Origin: Escherichia phage bob
DNA length: 45,256 nucleotides
Direction: 5' to 3' (one strand)
Sequence record: NC_073072.1
The translations under genes were made by a program, and so were the position numbers. A model generated the notes under the pieces. The model was not told the DNA's origin and did not search any database. It worked only from the letters and a program-made list of their open reading frames with translations. Below, piece by piece: positions 19,556 through 45,256 of this stretch (position 1 is the stretch's first letter; each line of letters opens with the position of its first letter).

Positions 19556-19745
19556 TTATTCAGTCTCAGACGAGGGGGGCCATTGACCCCCGTCTAGTCT
19601 GAAAGACTGGGGTGCTGTCCCGCTGTCCCGATCGGCTGAAAACCGCGGCAGCACTGGCGGGGACGGGGTGCTGTCCCGTTTTGTCCCGCCCCTTGTTTGT
19701 CCCGCTTTCTGTCCCGCTTACTTTATGCAATAAAACTGCATAGGT
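19556..19745. repeat. copy A of a ~180-190 bp dispersed element (G-rich hairpin plus GTCCCG iterons)
   Basis: First ~75 bp TTATTCAGTCTCAGACGAGGGGGGCCAtTGACCCCCGTCTAGTCTGAAAGACTGGGGTGCTGTCCCGCTGTCCCG near-identical to 35971-36045; both copies end TTTATGCA..TTGCATA. Confidence 0.8.
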
Positions 19746-19764
19746 ATGCACATTTACAGGGCGT

Positions 19765-19874
19765 GACAAAACGGGACGTCCCGCCTGTCCCGCTTTGAGT
19801 TTATGCAATGAAAGTGATTAGATATGCGGTTTTACAGAGGCGGGACAAAACGGGACGTCCCGCCTGTCCCGCTT
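19765..19874. repeat. two perfect 31 bp direct repeats each containing the 12 bp palindrome CGGGACGTCCCG
   Basis: GACAAAACGGGACGTCCCGCCTGTCCCGCTT at 19765-19795 and 19844-19874, inside a ~79 bp imperfect tandem unit. Confidence 0.8.
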
Positions 19875-35821: not shown

Positions 35822-35970
35822 TTAATCACGCGCATGAAAAAGTTGATCGCTATCTGCTGCAACTGCAAACTGCGTTTTTCACTCAGCATAGTGCATCTCG
35901 TATTGGTTGCCTAGTTCATCCGCGACCGCACTTCACATCATGCTGCCGTGTATTTTGCAATCTCCGGATT

Positions 35971-36158
35971 TTATTCAGTCTCAGACGAGGGGGGCCACTG
36001 ACCCCCGTCTAGTCTGAAAGACTGGGGTGCTGTCCCGCTGTCCCGCTCCTCTGGAAGCCGCGCCATCCGGGGCGGGACGGGGGTGCTGTCCCGCTTTGTC
36101 CCGCCCCTAGTCTGTCCCGCTTTTTGTCCCGTTTGGTTTATGCAGTTTTATTGCATAA
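35971..36158. repeat. copy B of the ~180-190 bp dispersed element
   Basis: Same hairpin GACGAGGGGGGCCAcTGACCCCCGTC and six GTCCCG iterons; aligns with 19556-19745. Confidence 0.8.
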
Positions 36159-36182
36159 CTATTCATTACATCCACATTACAC

Positions 36183-36302
36183 GGCAACCAACGCGACTGG
36201 ATAAAAACACTCAAAATGGCAACCAATGCGCGCAAAATTTAGTCTTTTAGCGATATGGGAATCCACATATCGGCAACCAATGCGCGCAAAATTTAATCTT
36301 TT
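36183..36302. repeat. iteron-like direct repeats GGCAACCAA(T/C)GCG(CGCAAAATTTARTCTTTTA) next to an AT-rich tract; candidate replication origin
   Basis: Three copies starting 36183, 36217, 36271; the last two are 32 bp near-identical; AT-rich 36136-36180. Confidence 0.45.
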
Positions 36303-36345
36303 AAATCGTCATCGGTCGCCGAAAGCGTGATGGGTATATTCGTTT

Positions 36346-38634
36346 TTATGACAATATTCGACGACCCATAGATGGCTCCGGTGTGTGGGTCTGTATAAAA
36401 ACCGAGTACGCCGCGCTCGACCATATCGTCGATTGCCTTCGTCGATGTGCCACCTTTCGCAAGCCCAGCCTGGCGGACAATTGCCGATTTACTGAATCCG
36501 GTATGGTCCGGGTTATCTTCGATGTGCCACCTTTCGCAAGCCCAGCCTGGCGGACAATTGCCGATTTACTGAATCCGGTATGGTCCGGGTTATCTTCCAT
36601 CAGTTTTTCCAGCGCTGCATAAAGCACTTTCTCTTTTTCGTTGCGCGGTCCTGCTGCGTTCTCTTCCTTAACTGCTGCCTTGCCAGCGGCCTTCGCCTGT
36701 TCGATGGCGAACGGTGCCAGGGCGACCGGTACGAGGTAAAGAGTCTCGTCGCGTGGCGTGGAGGCAATTGGCTTGACGTCCCAACCGGCAACTACATCGC
36801 CGAAGTCCGGCCCGGTGCTGGTGGACTGGTGTGCCTCGAACGCCTCGGACTTGCGGAGATCCACCTTAACTTTGCACTTGAGCAGGACGAAGCCACGCGG
36901 CGCTTGCTTGATGCCGTTACGTGACTTCTCATGATACAGGTTCAATTGTCCGGGCTGGTTGTCGTCCGGCTGTTCCAGGAAGAACGCAGAATCGACAGCA
37001 CCATGCAGCGCGCCGGACCCGCGGGGAGATCTGCTGCCGTTTGAACCTTTCGCCGGGTGGTGGATGACGCCCGCACTGCCGCCTGTATTTTCCGCAATGG
37101 CCTTCAGCGCTTTGACCACTTCGCCCATATCGCTGGCGTTGTTCTCGTCGAACGGTTTTGCATCGGCGGACCGCAGCGCAACAGTCTGGTTGAGTGAGTC
37201 GAACGCCACCAGGCCAACCGGCTCGCCGTTAGCGGTGCGGTTGATGAAGCTGATAACTTCACGCAAGCCAGATTTGCTGGTGATATCCCATCCGCGTGAT
37301 TGCAGATCGATAATGTGCAGCTTGTCCAGGTCGTGCTCATATTTGATCTGCAGTGCTTCTTTACGCTGGTTGGAGGCCTCACCACCTTCCGCATCGAAAT
37401 AGAAGCAATGAGACTGGACGACCTTCGCACCGCCGAACGGAATACCGGCAGATACTGACGCCATCTGGCCCAGCACGTAGAACGACTTGCCAATGTTCGA
37501 TTCGCCAGCCATATACCAGGTCGATTTGAAGTTGACCAGGCCTTCGATGATCGGGTCGTGCTTACTGAACAGTGCGACCGGCTCGTTGTCCAGGTCTGCA
37601 TCAGTACACACGCCGTACTCGTCGCCGTCTCCGACCGCATCAACGATATGTTCATAGCACGATTCCACTTCCTCATCGTCCAGTCCCGGAAGGATGGCGG
37701 CGATTTGCTTACGTGACATGTTGTGCGGCTCGACGTTCAGGTGGTCCGGGATCCCGATAAGACGTAGCGCCAGGTGCTGGTGTCTGTTCAGTTCCGAGCA
37801 ACACTCGTTGCCGGTGTGCATACACTTGAAACGGATCTCGCCATCCTTAACCATGATAGCGGTGGACCCTTCGCCGCTGTGCAGGTGTTCGTTCGGGCAT
37901 GGCACTTCATAACCACGACCAGACGACAGCGGTTCGAATCCCGCCTGGAAGCACCAATCCAGAATACCGTCCGCCACACCATCATCGCCCTGGGTCAGTT
38001 CGCGGCGTACTTCCTCTTTCTCGACTCCCAGCTTGTCCGCCAGGCGGAGAAGACGACGGACGCGGGCGCGCTTGCCGTAGTGGCACTTAACGACAGACTG
38101 CTGATGTGGCAGGTACATAAGGCGGTTTGTGTCTTTTGTACAGTCGTCGAAGTCCACATCTGACAGACCAAGTTGGTGTAATAGCGCATACTGGACACGG
38201 CCCAGGTCTTCAGCCGGTACAGGCTTGTCCGTGAGTACCAGGAATCGAGCGCAACGCGTGCCGCCTTTCAGCGGGTGGCGGTCGCCGGTTGTGGTGTGAA
38301 ATACGTGCTCCAGCCCCGCGTCGATGAAAGCCTTACGGCAGCGGCGTAGGGTGCGGGTGTCGGTACGGTCAATATCGAAGAACAGGATCGAGCGGTCCAC
38401 CGCACTGGTCTTGCGGCGTAAGCCGTCACTGGTATACGCTACGATGCCATCGGCCTTACGCTTGCGGCGCGCATACTCGGCTTTATCTTCCGTCTTGTTG
38501 ATATGCACCGACGATATCTCTTTCGCATCTTTGATAAATTCGAAAAATTCATCGGTCGTCATCCGGAAGTTTTCCGCCCTGGCTTTTTCGCCTTTTTTAG
38601 CGGGTCGTGTTACAGCGAATTTAATTAAGCTCAT
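36346..38634 (-). CDS. primase-helicase (AEP-type primase N-terminus, Zn-binding middle, P-loop helicase C-terminus), with an altered C-terminal tail
   Basis: 762 aa; FFDIDRTD primase-like, CPNEHLHSGE...CMHTGNEC, Walker A GESNIGKS, Walker B LVAFDSL; 3' end carries a 77 bp tandem duplication. Confidence 0.8.
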   Translation of the reverse strand: MSLIKFAVTRPAKKGEKARAENFRMTTDEFFEFIKDAKEISSVHINKTEDKAEYARRKRKADGIVAYTSDGLRRKTSAVDRSILFFDIDRTDTRTLRRCRKAFIDAGLEHVFHTTTGDRHPLKGGTRCARFLVLTDKPVPAEDLGRVQYALLHQLGLSDVDFDDCTKDTNRLMYLPHQQSVVKCHYGKRARVRRLLRLADKLGVEKEEVRRELTQGDDGVADGILDWCFQAGFEPLSSGRGYEVPCPNEHLHSGEGSTAIMVKDGEIRFKCMHTGNECCSELNRHQHLALRLIGIPDHLNVEPHNMSRKQIAAILPGLDDEEVESCYEHIVDAVGDGDEYGVCTDADLDNEPVALFSKHDPIIEGLVNFKSTWYMAGESNIGKSFYVLGQMASVSAGIPFGGAKVVQSHCFYFDAEGGEASNQRKEALQIKYEHDLDKLHIIDLQSRGWDITSKSGLREVISFINRTANGEPVGLVAFDSLNQTVALRSADAKPFDENNASDMGEVVKALKAIAENTGGSAGVIHHPAKGSNGSRSPRGSGALHGAVDSAFFLEQPDDNQPGQLNLYHEKSRNGIKQAPRGFVLLKCKVKVDLRKSEAFEAHQSTSTGPDFGDVVAGWDVKPIASTPRDETLYLVPVALAPFAIEQAKAAGKAAVKEENAAGPRNEKEKVLYAALEKLMEDNPDHTGFSKSAIVRQAGLAKGGTSKITRTIPDSVNRQLSARLGLRKVAHRRRQSTIWSSAAYSVFIQTHTPEPSMGRRILS
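36443..36596. repeat. perfect 77 bp tandem duplication inside the primase-helicase coding region
   Basis: 36443-36519 and 36520-36596 are identical; 77 is not a multiple of 3, so the second-read copy is translated in a shifted frame. Confidence 0.85.
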
Positions 38635-39181: not shown

Positions 39182-39377
39182 TCACCCCGTCGACAGGATG
39201 CAGGACGCAAACTGGAGAGGGGCAACGCAGGGGCCGGATCGAAGTGTCAGGATTCCCAACCGTGATTATATAACCCGGTCCACTACCCGAACGGGAGAAC
39301 GCGCAACCGGGCAATATGTTAAGGCCACCGACGAAGTTAACTGCCGACACCTAAACTTAACCAATCGGAGATATACC

Positions 39378-39899
39378 ATGTTTGAGCAAATCGTAAACCT
39401 GATCACTCGCGGCGTAGTAGCACTGGAAACCATCGCTAAGCATTATGAAACCGTTGGCGCTGCCGTTGGTAAACAGGAAGATAAGAAGCCGTCTAAGGCG
39501 AAAAAAGAAGTTGTCGAAGATGACGACGATGAAGCTGAAGACGAAAAACCGGCTAAATCTAAAAAAGCACCGGCGAAAGGTAAGGCTAAAAAAGAAGTCG
39601 TAGAAGATGACGACGACGATGCCGAAGACGATGCCGAAGACGAAAAACCGGCTAAGTCTAAAAAAGCGAAAGGCAAAGGTAAGAAAGATGCCGATCCGCT
39701 GGCGGAGATGCGCGACGAAATCAAACAGTATGCCGCGATTATTGCGGGTGGTGATGACGACGACGCGAACGACGAATTCGACGACCTGCTGGAATCGTTC
39801 GAGATCAAATCAATCGCCAAGCTGGAAGATGACGACGTCGAAGACTTCCACAAAGAGCTAAAAGAAATCGTCGAAACCTATTTCGAACTGGAAGATTAA
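39378..39899 (+). CDS. highly acidic low-complexity repeat protein (first gene of rightward early operon)
   Basis: ATG 39378 with GGAG RBS; repeats KKEVVEDDDDEAEDEKPAKSKKA; an in-frame upstream ATG at 39198 is a possible alternative start. Confidence 0.6.
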   Translation: MFEQIVNLITRGVVALETIAKHYETVGAAVGKQEDKKPSKAKKEVVEDDDDEAEDEKPAKSKKAPAKGKAKKEVVEDDDDDAEDDAEDEKPAKSKKAKGKGKKDADPLAEMRDEIKQYAAIIAGGDDDDANDEFDDLLESFEIKSIAKLEDDDVEDFHKELKEIVETYFELED

Positions 39900-39947
39900 T
39901 ATATTCCGGCCCGCAGATTAGCGGGCCTCTTTTTAGAGGACGAGACA

Positions 39948-42942: not shown

Positions 42943-43113
42943 ATGCGTATTAAAGCCAGCGAAGTAAAAGTCGGAATGAAAGTATGGTCTAAGCTACTGG
43001 GGGAGTATTTCACAGTTGCCGAGATTCGCAACAACGGCGAAGAGATTGCCCTGTCTGACGGCATCTTCTCCATGATCGGCAGCGCTGACGCCGTAGTGAG
43101 GATAAAGCAATGA
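42943..43113 (+). CDS. small hypothetical protein (56 aa)
   Basis: ATG 42943; stop overlaps the polymerase ATG (ATGA); below track cutoff. Confidence 0.4.
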   Translation: MRIKASEVKVGMKVWSKLLGEYFTVAEIRNNGEEIALSDGIFSMIGSADAVVRIKQ

Positions 43114-45256
43114 AAGACTTCGAACGCCTGTTTCTCGATACCGAGACATTTAGCGGGGTGGACCTGAAGAAAGTTGGGGCGTACGCCTACGCAGAGCACC
43201 CAACCACCGAGATTATGATTTGCACATACGCCATCGACGAGGGCCGCGTGCAGACATGGGATGCCACTGAATCCCCAACAATGCCGCGTGAACTGCGCAA
43301 GGCGCTTCGCCAGGTATCCCGCAAGAAAGCAAAAATCGTGATGGCTAACGGCCTCCTGTTTGACCGCCTGGTTATCCGTGAGAAGTGGGGCATCGACCTG
43401 CCGGTAAGCCAGATCGAAGACACCATGATTATGGCCTTTCGCCACGCGCTGCCCGGTAGCCTAGATATGCAGTGCCAGGTGCTGGGCGTTGACGCAGAGC
43501 ACGCGAAAGATAAGGCAGGCAAGGCGCTGATTAAACGATTCTGTAAGCCCACCCCTAAGACCTACAAAATCCGCCGCTACACACGCGAGACGCACCCCGA
43601 AGAATGGGCCAAATTCTTGCGCTATGCCGCGCTGGATATTGTTGCCATGCGTGAAGTCTACTGGCGCATACCGGACTGGGGTAATACTCAGAAGGAAGAT
43701 GAAATCCTGCTCATCGACCAGTTGATTAACGACCGCGGCTTCTACGTTGACGTTGATCTGGCGAACGCCGCGATCAAAGCGGTGCAGGCGCATAAGGAAG
43801 AATTGAAGGAAGAAGCCTGGGAGCGATTTGGTGGTAAACTGACAGGCAATGACTTCCTGCCAATCCTGCGTGATATCGCCCCGGCGTTCACAATCCACAA
43901 CGCGCAGAAATCCACACTTAACGACCTGCTTGAAGACCCGGACTTCCCCGACGAAGGCAAAGCGCTTATCGAAATGCGCCTCGGAGCGTCATCAACGGCA
44001 TCGACTAAGTACAATCCGCTCGTTAACGGCCTATCCGCAGATGGTCGCCGCCGTGGGTGTCTTCAGTATGGCGGCGCAAAGCGCACGCTACGCTGGGCCG
44101 GTAAAGGCTTCCAGCCTCAAAACCTGGCACGCGGCGAGTATAGCGACGACCACGAAGGGAAGATTAAGCGCCGCGAAGGCGAGAGCGACGTCTCGTTTTG
44201 GGTCCGGTCGCACATGCTCACCAACGGCATCAACTCCCTGTTACGCGGGACCGCACACTGGGCGTATGACATATCGAAGCTGACTGCCTCGACCGTTCGC
44301 GGGTGCATTATCCCAGCTAAGGGTAAGAAGTTTGTCGTCGCGGACTACTCCAACGTGGAAGGGCGCGGCCTTGCCTGGATCGCTGGCGAGAAAACCGCGC
44401 TAATGGTGTTTAAGGCCGGACGCGATATCTATTGTGAGACCGCCGGTAAGATGTTCGGCCTGGACCCGGACTACATTAAAGCCAACCGCAAGGACTTACG
44501 CCAGATCGGTAAGGCGTGCGAATTGGGACTGGGCTATGGTGGCGGCGTGGCAGCGTTCTTGCAGTTCGCTAAAAACCTGGGCCTCGACCTTTACACTATG
44601 GCGGACGTGATGAAGGGCACGTTCCCGGATCACATTTGGGCGGCGGCGAAACGCGGCTATGAGTACGCCCGCATTAACGAAGCGAAACGCCCACCGAAGC
44701 CTGGCAAGAAGGACGAGCGACCGACTTACATACTGCCGAAAAACGTATGGCTTACGTGTGATGCGATTAAACGCATGTGGCGCGAGGCTCACCCGAAGAC
44801 GGTAGCCTTTTGGGCCGAGCTTGAGGACGCGGTGTTGTGTGCAATCCGCAATCCTGGCAAAGCGTACTGGGCTGGCGCGAACGTTCGCCCGGATGGTAAG
44901 AAAGCGCTCAAGATAGTCCGCACGAAGGCGAAGCATGACCCAACCTTCGACGAGGAACGCGACGACCCGAACGCCGCGGGGTGGTGGTTGAAAATTGAGT
45001 TGCCGTCGGGGCGTATTATGAGTTATCCAGGCATTGCGCTGTCTGTCACTACCGAGATTGACGAAGACACCGGCAAGAAGCGCACCAGCACACGCATTAA
45101 ATATCAGGGCGAGAATCAGACGACGCGCCAGTGGGGATTCCAGTATACCTACGGCGGCAAACTGACGGAGAACATCGTGCAGGCGTTGTGTCGCGATATT
45201 CTCGCATGGTCTATGCCTGGCGTTGAAGCTGCGGGCTATGAAATCGTTCTATCGGT
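43110..45256 (+). CDS. DNA polymerase family A with 3'-5' exonuclease domain, N-terminal ~715 codons (open at window end, continues at 1..145)
   Basis: ATG 43110 with GAGGA RBS; exo motif LFLDTETFS; ...RQIGKACELGLGYGGG... motif B-like; absent from the ORF track because it has no stop within the window. Confidence 0.9.
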   Translation, partial: MKDFERLFLDTETFSGVDLKKVGAYAYAEHPTTEIMICTYAIDEGRVQTWDATESPTMPRELRKALRQVSRKKAKIVMANGLLFDRLVIREKWGIDLPVSQIEDTMIMAFRHALPGSLDMQCQVLGVDAEHAKDKAGKALIKRFCKPTPKTYKIRRYTRETHPEEWAKFLRYAALDIVAMREVYWRIPDWGNTQKEDEILLIDQLINDRGFYVDVDLANAAIKAVQAHKEELKEEAWERFGGKLTGNDFLPILRDIAPAFTIHNAQKSTLNDLLEDPDFPDEGKALIEMRLGASSTASTKYNPLVNGLSADGRRRGCLQYGGAKRTLRWAGKGFQPQNLARGEYSDDHEGKIKRREGESDVSFWVRSHMLTNGINSLLRGTAHWAYDISKLTASTVRGCIIPAKGKKFVVADYSNVEGRGLAWIAGEKTALMVFKAGRDIYCETAGKMFGLDPDYIKANRKDLRQIGKACELGLGYGGGVAAFLQFAKNLGLDLYTMADVMKGTFPDHIWAAAKRGYEYARINEAKRPPKPGKKDERPTYILPKNVWLTCDAIKRMWREAHPKTVAFWAELEDAVLCAIRNPGKAYWAGANVRPDGKKALKIVRTKAKHDPTFDEERDDPNAAGWWLKIELPSGRIMSYPGIALSVTTEIDEDTGKKRTSTRIKYQGENQTTRQWGFQYTYGGKLTENIVQALCRDILAWSMPGVEAAGYEIVLS

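What the first reader, a model, noticed from the sequence alone, without database searches (positions are those of the whole stretch)
36443..36596. Perfect 77 bp tandem duplication that frameshifts the C-terminus of the primase-helicase
36443-36519 and 36520-36596 are identical. The upstream-read copy (36596-36520 on the coding strand) is in frame, giving ...EDNPDHTGFSKSAIVRQAGLAKGGTS. The second copy is then read shifted, giving an unrelated 57 aa tail (KITRTIPDSVNRQLSARLGL...GRRILS) ending at 36346. With one copy removed the frame would instead continue ...GGTSTKAIDDMVERGVLGFYTDPHTGAIYGSSNIVIKTNIPITLSATDDDLKD to a TAA near 36293-36295. Identity at nucleotide level suggests a recent duplication, an assembly artefact, or a slippage hotspot that toggles the C-terminal domain.
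Basis: seen in the sequence. Interest (0 to 1): 0.65.

Follow-up and report, generated by a model that had tools for sequence, protein, structure and literature searches.

The report
Probable assembler-made duplication in phage primase-helicase
The perfect 77-base tandem duplication that frameshifts the primase-helicase gene of Escherichia phage bob is really in the deposited sequence, but it is most likely a leftover assembler k-mer overlap rather than biology, so it matters mainly as a database error.

Summary
Window 36443-36519 and 36520-36596 are identical (period 77, 100% match). The second copy shifts the frame of the 762-aa primase-helicase ORF. Removing one copy restores a 754-aa protein ending at the TAA at 36293-36295.

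The window is the complete record of Escherichia phage bob (MN850628, Dhillonvirus), and the frameshifted protein is deposited as QHZ59658.1/YP_010741542.1. Every relative examined has a single copy and a 754-aa ortholog. The copy-to-copy junction is absent from three public contig collections.

The frameshift would delete the recognition helix, the wing and the conserved acidic tail of a C-terminal winged-helix domain. That segment is under strong purifying selection (pN/pS 0.09), yet bob's out-of-frame DNA still encodes it perfectly.

The repeat length equals the largest default SPAdes k-mer for 2x150-nt reads. The source paper used that read format and SPAdes 3.12.0 for additional assemblies. 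Published precedents describe 77-bp SPAdes end overlaps and Sanger-disproved k-length internal repeats in re-oriented phage assemblies.

Best reading (about 0.8): an untrimmed k=77 overlap made internal by rotating or joining contigs. A genuine recent duplication is not excluded (about 0.15) because no reads are available. Interest is low.

The parts
36520..36596 (-). Upstream copy of the 77-nt unit (first one read on the coding strand). It is in frame and encodes aa 680-705 (EDNPDHTGFSKSAIVRQAGLAKGGTS), which form the end of helix 1, helix 2 and the turn of the winged-helix domain.
   Evidence: structure
36443..36519 (-). Downstream copy of the 77-nt unit, identical to the first. It is the extra copy relative to all relatives. 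77 = 25x3+2, so it shifts the frame.
36346..38634 (-). Primase-helicase ORF as it reads in the record: 762 aa, deposited as QHZ59658.1 / YP_010741542.1. The last 57 aa are out-of-frame translation.
36293..36442 (-). Native C-terminal coding segment (49 codons TKAIDDMVERGV...DDDLKD plus TAA at 36293-36295), put out of frame by the extra copy. Its native-frame translation is 100% identical to that of SO-1 and several other relatives.
36346..36348 (-). Stop codon reached in the shifted frame.

Best explanation
The second copy is not part of the phage genome. It is the k-length overlap (k = 77) that SPAdes leaves where a circular or circularly permuted genome closes on itself, or where two neighbouring graph contigs meet. 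Someone or something circularised or concatenated the sequence without removing that overlap and then re-cut it elsewhere, plausibly to match the arbitrary start of the parallel CLC contig inside polA. That turned the overlap into an internal perfect 77-nt tandem duplication. Gene callers then produced a frameshifted 762-aa primase-helicase.

The true gene would be the 754-aa single-copy version, made of an N-terminal primase region, a RepA-like helicase core and a C-terminal winged-helix domain with an acidic tail.

Shown: the repeat, its exact length and identity, its absence from relatives, the conservation of the lost domain, the sequencing and assembly software used, and the closure state of the record. 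Inferred: that bob's deposited sequence derives from the SPAdes assembly, and the rotation or join step itself.
For: (1) The period is exactly 77, with 100% identity and no spacer.

(2) The source paper states NextSeq 300-cycle (2x150) reads, CLC assembly, and additional ('control' in the preprint) assemblies with SPAdes 3.12.0. [quoted passage not shown] PMC8767329 reports the same 77-bp end identity.

(3) There is a precedent for the internal form. PMC10438801 found roughly 79-bp repeats inside SPAdes/Shovill phage assemblies in 7 of 10 phages, without extra read depth, and most were shown to be artefacts by Sanger sequencing.

(4) The window is a whole genome whose ends abut exactly in relatives, with no overlap and no gap, and it starts inside polA. 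That is what cutting a circularised contig produces. The same lab rotated other genomes, since its MK-series microviruses start at gpA.

(5) All 18 fetched relatives have exactly one copy, and orthologs are 754 aa. The junction has 0 hits in the viral, metagenome and genome contig collections, whereas the normal boundary is found in 12 IMG/VR contigs.

(6) The frameshift would remove helix 3, the wing and the acidic tail of a winged-helix domain. These are conserved down to about 44% identity and under purifying selection (pN/pS 0.09 at pS 0.29). Bob's out-of-frame DNA still encodes the native sequence perfectly.

(7) Bob's proteins carry QHZ accession numbers while ten sister records run in one ordered QHR series around it. 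This suggests the record was handled separately. It is weak, circumstantial evidence.
Against: The duplication is internal to the deposited record, not at its ends: protein accession order follows window coordinates. An undocumented rotation or concatenation step must therefore be assumed.

The paper names CLC as the main assembler and does not say which assembly was deposited for bob. None of ten sister genomes from the study shows a k-length terminal or internal repeat, and the MN-series sisters look unrotated.

A 2-nt junction microhomology is also what a genuine illegitimate-recombination duplication could show. No reads or independent assembly of bob exist in the collections searched, so the artefact is inferred, not demonstrated.
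Confidence: 0.8

Rival explanations
1. Genuine, very recent tandem duplication fixed in the sequenced phage population. It would have arisen by replication slippage or illegitimate recombination at a 2-nt microhomology and would truncate the winged-helix C-terminus of the primase-helicase. The phage would survive because that domain is dispensable in the enrichment, or because related co-infecting phages complement it.
For: The sequence is in the deposited record and internal to it. There is 2-nt 'TC' junction identity. The DNA came from unpurified enrichment-well lysates in which up to four phages co-occurred. Bob shares a near-identical arc of about 7 kb with phage mckay from the same study, so close relatives did co-circulate. 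CLC, with merged reads of up to about 290 nt, could assemble a real 154-nt repeat correctly (inference).
Against: The length would equal the SPAdes k of 77 by coincidence, roughly 1 in 100 or less for an arbitrary duplication length (inference). No relative has it and the junction appears in no public collection. The destroyed segment is conserved and strongly constrained. There is no decay at all in the out-of-frame part. The 2-nt identity is expected by chance in 16% of cases.
Confidence: 0.1
2. The duplication exists only in a minority of genomes in the lysate, for example defective genomes complemented by wild type. The de Bruijn assembler traversed the resulting loop once, so the consensus contig carries a variant that is not the majority sequence.
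For: The lysates were non-clonal. Loop traversal is a known behaviour of graph assemblers (own knowledge, not tested here).
Against: It needs the same length coincidence with k = 77. There are no data on allele frequencies. No such variant appears in any related genome.
Confidence: 0.05
3. A programmed or phase-variable repeat: a slippage hotspot that switches the C-terminal domain on and off, or a site of programmed frameshifting that reads through both copies.
For: Two perfect 77-nt copies could collapse to one by slippage, which is a general property of direct repeats (own knowledge).
Against: Only one state (one copy, 754 aa) is seen in the inspected matches among 157 phage records, in 18 fetched loci and in the listed members of a 517-member protein cluster. 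Going from one copy to two has only 2 nt of homology to work with. No slippery-site or structure analysis suggests frameshifting, and that was not pursued. The shifted tail has no conserved counterpart.
Confidence: 0.02

Closest known systems
SPAdes k-mer-length end overlap of circular or circularly permuted genomes (77 bp with default k for 2x150 reads), as described for Salmonella phages in PMC9409062 and for a mitochondrial genome in PMC8767329
   Same: Exactly 77 nt, 100% identical, directly abutting once the ends are joined. The read format and assembler family match those of the source study. The genome is circularly permuted and closes on itself.
   Different: In those reports the two copies sit at the two ends of the raw contig and were trimmed. 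Here they are adjacent and internal, 8.7 kb from the record end, so a further rotation or join step has to be assumed.
Internal roughly 79-bp repeats in short-read-only (Shovill/SPAdes) przondovirus assemblies, shown to be artefacts by Sanger sequencing (PMC10438801)
   Same: A k-sized perfect repeat inside a finished phage genome, not matched by extra read depth. It causes annotation errors and arises in assemblies that were re-oriented.
   Different: The phage family differs (T7-like with direct terminal repeats), as does the k value. For bob no read or Sanger check is available.
Genuine microhomology-mediated tandem duplications in phage genomes (general phenomenon, own knowledge)
   Same: Head-to-tail arrangement, perfect identity when recent, and a short junction homology (2 nt).
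   Different: Real duplications have arbitrary lengths and would not be expected to persist when they knock out a conserved domain of a replication protein.
Phage/plasmid primase-helicases with a RepA-like core and a C-terminal winged-helix DNA-binding domain, for example P4 alpha protein with its ori/crr iterons (own knowledge, comparison not tested)
   Different: No sequence match to P4 alpha was sought or found. DNA binding and origin function are untested. This concerns the gene, not the duplication.

Membership tests
Assembler k-mer overlap artefact (SPAdes) | Repeat length equals the largest k used (77 for default SPAdes on 150-nt reads) | tested here: met
   Period 77. The study used 2x150 reads and SPAdes 3.12.0. 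The link between 77 bp and default SPAdes on 2x150 reads is documented in PMC9409062.
Assembler k-mer overlap artefact (SPAdes) | The two copies are 100% identical and directly adjacent | tested here: met
   100% matches, 0 indels, no spacer.
Assembler k-mer overlap artefact (SPAdes) | Genome is circular or circularly permuted, so that a contig closes on itself | tested here: met
   Window end and start are adjacent in mckay, jat, welsh and rolling, with 0 nt between them. Records of the genus start at many different points.
Assembler k-mer overlap artefact (SPAdes) | Extra copy absent from related genomes and from independent assemblies | tested here: met
   One copy in 18 of 18 fetched relatives. 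The junction is absent from three collections, with a positive control. There is no independent assembly of bob itself to compare.
Assembler k-mer overlap artefact (SPAdes) | No reads span the copy-to-copy junction, and read depth over the unit is not doubled | not testable with these tools
   No reads are available. The paper cites no read archive for the isolates.
Assembler k-mer overlap artefact (SPAdes) | The deposited sequence derives from the SPAdes assembly and was rotated or joined after assembly | tested here: inconclusive
   The paper does not say which assembly was deposited for bob. Exact closure with a start inside polA fits a cut circle. The lab rotated other genomes. Ten sister records show no k-length repeat.
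Genuine tandem duplication | Junction microhomology beyond chance | tested here: inconclusive
   2 nt, with chance probability 0.16.
Genuine tandem duplication | Product compatible with a viable phage | tested here: not met
   It removes the recognition helix, wing and conserved acidic tail of a constrained domain. Viability itself was not tested experimentally.
Phase-variable or programmed-frameshift repeat | Both states, or the repeat itself, conserved among relatives | tested here: not met
   Only the single-copy state was seen.
RepA-like replicative primase-helicase (PHROG 3228, Pfam AAA_25) | RecA-type helicase core with family-level sequence and fold match | tested here: met
RepA-like replicative primase-helicase (PHROG 3228, Pfam AAA_25) | Full-length C-terminus (winged helix plus D-x-D-L-x-D tail) as in family members | tested here: not met
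   Not met by the deposited 762-aa product, but met by the one-copy reconstruction.

The most novel reading that the evidence does not exclude
The duplication is real. A Dhillonvirus population in an unpurified wastewater enrichment would then be dominated by genomes whose primase-helicase lacks the recognition helix, wing and acidic tail of its winged-helix domain. Either that conserved domain is dispensable for lytic growth on E. coli K-12, or defective genomes were being propagated by complementation from co-infecting relatives.
Probability: 0.13. Interest if true: 0.35.

Novelty: not a real feature. Interest (0 to 1): 0.1.

Why it matters
If the artefact reading is right, nothing biological is new. 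But a RefSeq species-exemplar genome (Escherichia phage bob) then carries 77 spurious bases, and a frameshifted replication protein has been propagated to RefSeq and UniProt (YP_010741542.1, A0A6C0R0J3). The record's arbitrary start also splits polA, so its DNA polymerase is missing from the proteome. Such errors distort pangenome, ortholog and frameshift statistics.

The case gives a simple screening rule. A perfect tandem repeat whose period equals a common assembler k (55, 77, 99, 127) should be treated as an artefact until reads say otherwise.

If the duplication were real, it would say that the conserved winged-helix C-terminus of this primase-helicase family is dispensable or can be complemented.

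Tried and rejected
(1) Chimera test. I asked whether the record is two contigs, one of them mckay-like, joined at the duplication. Bob and mckay are about 100% identical over 38,558->39,511, 39,921->44,752 and 45,036->663. These boundaries coincide neither with the duplication nor with the record ends, and the mismatches elsewhere are spaced at third codon positions. I read this as natural mosaicism, not evidence for a join.

(2) Same-study signature. I scanned ten sister genomes (mckay, jat, welsh, rolling, lillemer, Lilleven, Lilleput, Lilleto, aldrigsur, buks) for terminal overlaps and perfect repeats. I found only a 13-nt terminal overlap in mckay and no k-length repeat.

(3) Independent copy of bob. 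The exact repaired 754-aa protein is not in the 15-billion-protein collection. Bob's primase-helicase and tail fibre are known only from the NCBI record, and the encoding-contig look-up returned nothing. The record itself is not in the searchable phage collection.

(4) IMG/VR contig of 45,178 bp, almost the one-copy length of bob. It is only 93.5% identical, so it is a different phage.

(5) Sequence search of solved structures found nothing significant: the best hit was RSF1010 RepA at E 0.46. Fold comparison was needed instead.

(6) The HiTS methods paper (PMC9041460) is not held.

(7) Programmed frameshifting was considered and set aside because the repeat is not conserved. I did no slippery-site or RNA-structure analysis.

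Full report
**Observation.** The window carries a perfect tandem duplication. Positions 36443-36519 equal 36520-36596. Tandem Repeats Finder gives 36442-36597, period 77, 2.0 copies, 100% matches, no indels. The identity span is 79 nt, that is 77 nt plus 2 nt of flank identity ('TC'). A chance extension of at least 2 nt has probability 0.16. It is the only exact direct repeat longer than 47 nt in the window.

On the coding (minus) strand the upstream copy is in frame (aa 680-705). The downstream copy is read shifted and gives a 57-aa tail, with a stop at 36346. Deleting one copy gives a 754-aa protein that ends at the TAA at 36293-36295.

**Identity of the sequence.** The 762-aa product is found, residue for residue, as QHZ59658.1 / YP_010741542.1, 'putative replicative helicase/primease [Escherichia phage bob]', on a 45,256-nt contig, which is the window's length. 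Bob (MN850628) is one of five Dhillonvirus isolates in Olsen et al. 2020 (PMC7552041).

Accession numbers of seven bob proteins rise with window coordinates, and neither an intact nor a partial polA is on record. The window's last and first bases are adjacent in mckay, jat, welsh and rolling, with 0 nt between them. So the window is the deposited record. It is a closed circle cut inside polA, and the duplication lies inside it, 8.7 kb from the end.

**Relatives.** A 3-kb query around the gene matches 157 phage records. The listed ones align 3001 query bases to about 2924 record bases in two pieces, which is 77 fewer. A query centred on the copy-to-copy junction matches relatives only as two pieces that map to the two ends of one unit. 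Alignment with Envy and SO-1 shows a clean 77-nt insertion and nothing else. Their orthologous CDSs are 2265 nt, or 754 aa.

All 18 fetched relatives (Envy, SO-1, four sister phages, 12 IMG/VR contigs) contain exactly one copy. In the 517-member 90%-identity protein cluster, every other listed member is 754 aa. The 24-nt junction has no exact match in the viral, metagenome or genome contig collections, while the normal boundary is found in 12 IMG/VR contigs.

These parts are conserved down to homologs of about 44% identity: E676, G687 and D751 are invariant, and G702, G703, R715 and L752 are nearly so. Among 13 distinct close relatives the 49 post-unit codons have pN/pS = 0.09 at pS = 0.29. 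Bob's own out-of-frame segment still translates, in the native frame, to a sequence identical to that of SO-1 and others. Either the event is extremely recent or it never happened in the phage.

**Why an artefact is the best reading.** The study sequenced 2x150-nt reads and assembled them in CLC, with additional ('control' in the preprint) assemblies in SPAdes 3.12.0. For such reads the largest default SPAdes k is 77 (own knowledge). [quoted passage not shown] PMC8767329 reports the same.

PMC10438801 describes the internal form. It found roughly 79-bp repeats inside SPAdes/Shovill phage assemblies in seven of ten phages, not matched by read depth, and most were disproved by Sanger sequencing.

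A scenario that fits every fact here runs as follows. The SPAdes contig had its ends in the primase-helicase gene. It was closed without trimming and re-cut at the arbitrary start of the CLC contig in polA. This gives an exact closure, a start inside a gene, a length of one genome plus 77, and an internal 77-nt repeat. That step is inferred, not documented.

The lab did rotate other genomes, and finishing was uneven: mckay has 13 nt too many and jat lacks about 18 nt. Bob's proteins carry QHZ accession numbers whereas the neighbouring records run in one QHR series. That hints at separate handling.

**What speaks against it.** The duplication is not at the record ends. The paper does not say which assembly was deposited. 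Ten sister genomes show no k-length repeat. The DNA came from unpurified enrichment lysates, where defective variants might be complemented. No reads or second assembly of bob exist in the collections searched.

A test for a chimeric join at the duplication was negative. The 7-kb arc that is nearly identical between bob and mckay has boundaries elsewhere and looks like natural mosaicism.

**Weighing.** A real duplication would have to match the assembler's k by coincidence, roughly 1 in 100 or less (my estimate). It would also have to inactivate a constrained domain of a replication protein and still dominate the lysate. I put the artefact at about 0.8, a real fixed duplication at about 0.1, a minority variant captured by the assembler at about 0.05, and a phase-variable or programmed element at about 0.02. 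Read mapping or a 204-bp versus 281-bp PCR across 36,380-36,660 would settle it.

**Verdict.** This is probably not a real biological feature. Its value is as a curation flag for a RefSeq exemplar genome.

Noticed in passing
window 19,556-19,800 and 35,970-36,140: Two regions 16.4 kb apart share about 180 nt at roughly 90% identity, with at least eight TGTCCCGC iterons. They include exact shared stretches of 27 and 47 nt and a 79-nt-period array at 19,709-19,874. The second region lies immediately downstream of the primase-helicase gene. The SO-1 record calls them 'region A/B', possible origins. With a winged-helix C-terminus on the primase-helicase, this recalls the P4 ori/crr plus alpha protein layout (own knowledge, untested).
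   Followed up: partly
window 36,218-36,249 and 36,272-36,303: A 32-nt direct repeat, GGCAACCAATGCGCGCAAAATTTA(G/A)TCTTTTA, at 97% identity. The second copy overlaps the true stop codon of the one-copy gene. Related GGCAACCAA(T/C)GCG motifs occur at 36,182 and, inverted, at 35,899.
   Followed up: no
window 38,558 -> 45,256 -> 663 (wraps around the record ends): Bob and phage mckay (same study, adjacent accession) are about 100% identical over an arc of roughly 7 kb, broken by two divergent patches (39,512-39,920 and 44,753-45,035). They are 91-96% identical elsewhere. This suggests recent recombination between co-circulating wastewater phages.
   Followed up: yes
window 43,110-45,256 plus 1-145: The record's arbitrary start splits the DNA polymerase I gene (763 codons across the ends). 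Neither the intact nor the partial protein is in the protein collection, so bob's deposited proteome lacks its polymerase.
   Followed up: yes
L003 (mckay MN850629) and L004 (jat MN850650), record ends: Mckay carries a 13-nt redundant terminal overlap. Jat lacks about 18 nt between its end and start relative to mckay and bob. Welsh closes exactly. Finishing of the study's genomes was uneven.
   Followed up: yes
PQ843332.1 Escherichia phage P-GXEC-L2P5 (hit H56): This record is 88,607 bp long, about twice a Dhillonvirus genome, and the match came in 4 pieces. It is probably a concatemer or duplicated assembly.
   Followed up: no
hits: Records labelled Campylobacter phage A144 (MG065648), Acinetobacter phage NJ01 and Salmonella phage Kenya-K19 are more than 92% identical to E. 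coli Dhillonviruses in the regions compared or share their protein clusters. The host labels may reflect contamination or mislabelling.
   Followed up: no
window 39,500-39,650 (ORF 39,198-39,899, plus strand): An acidic, lysine-rich protein contains short tandem repeats of 9-15 nt periods (GAAGATGAC, AGACGATGCCGA). This is one of the two patches that differ between bob and mckay inside their otherwise identical arc, so the repeat number looks variable.
   Followed up: no
C-terminus of the one-copy protein (window 36,296-36,313, minus strand): The terminal motif D-x-D-L-x-D is invariant or nearly so (D751, L752) across homologs down to about 44% identity, and it is predicted to be disordered. 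It may be a docking tail for a replisome partner, as in T7 gp4 (own knowledge, untested).
   Followed up: no
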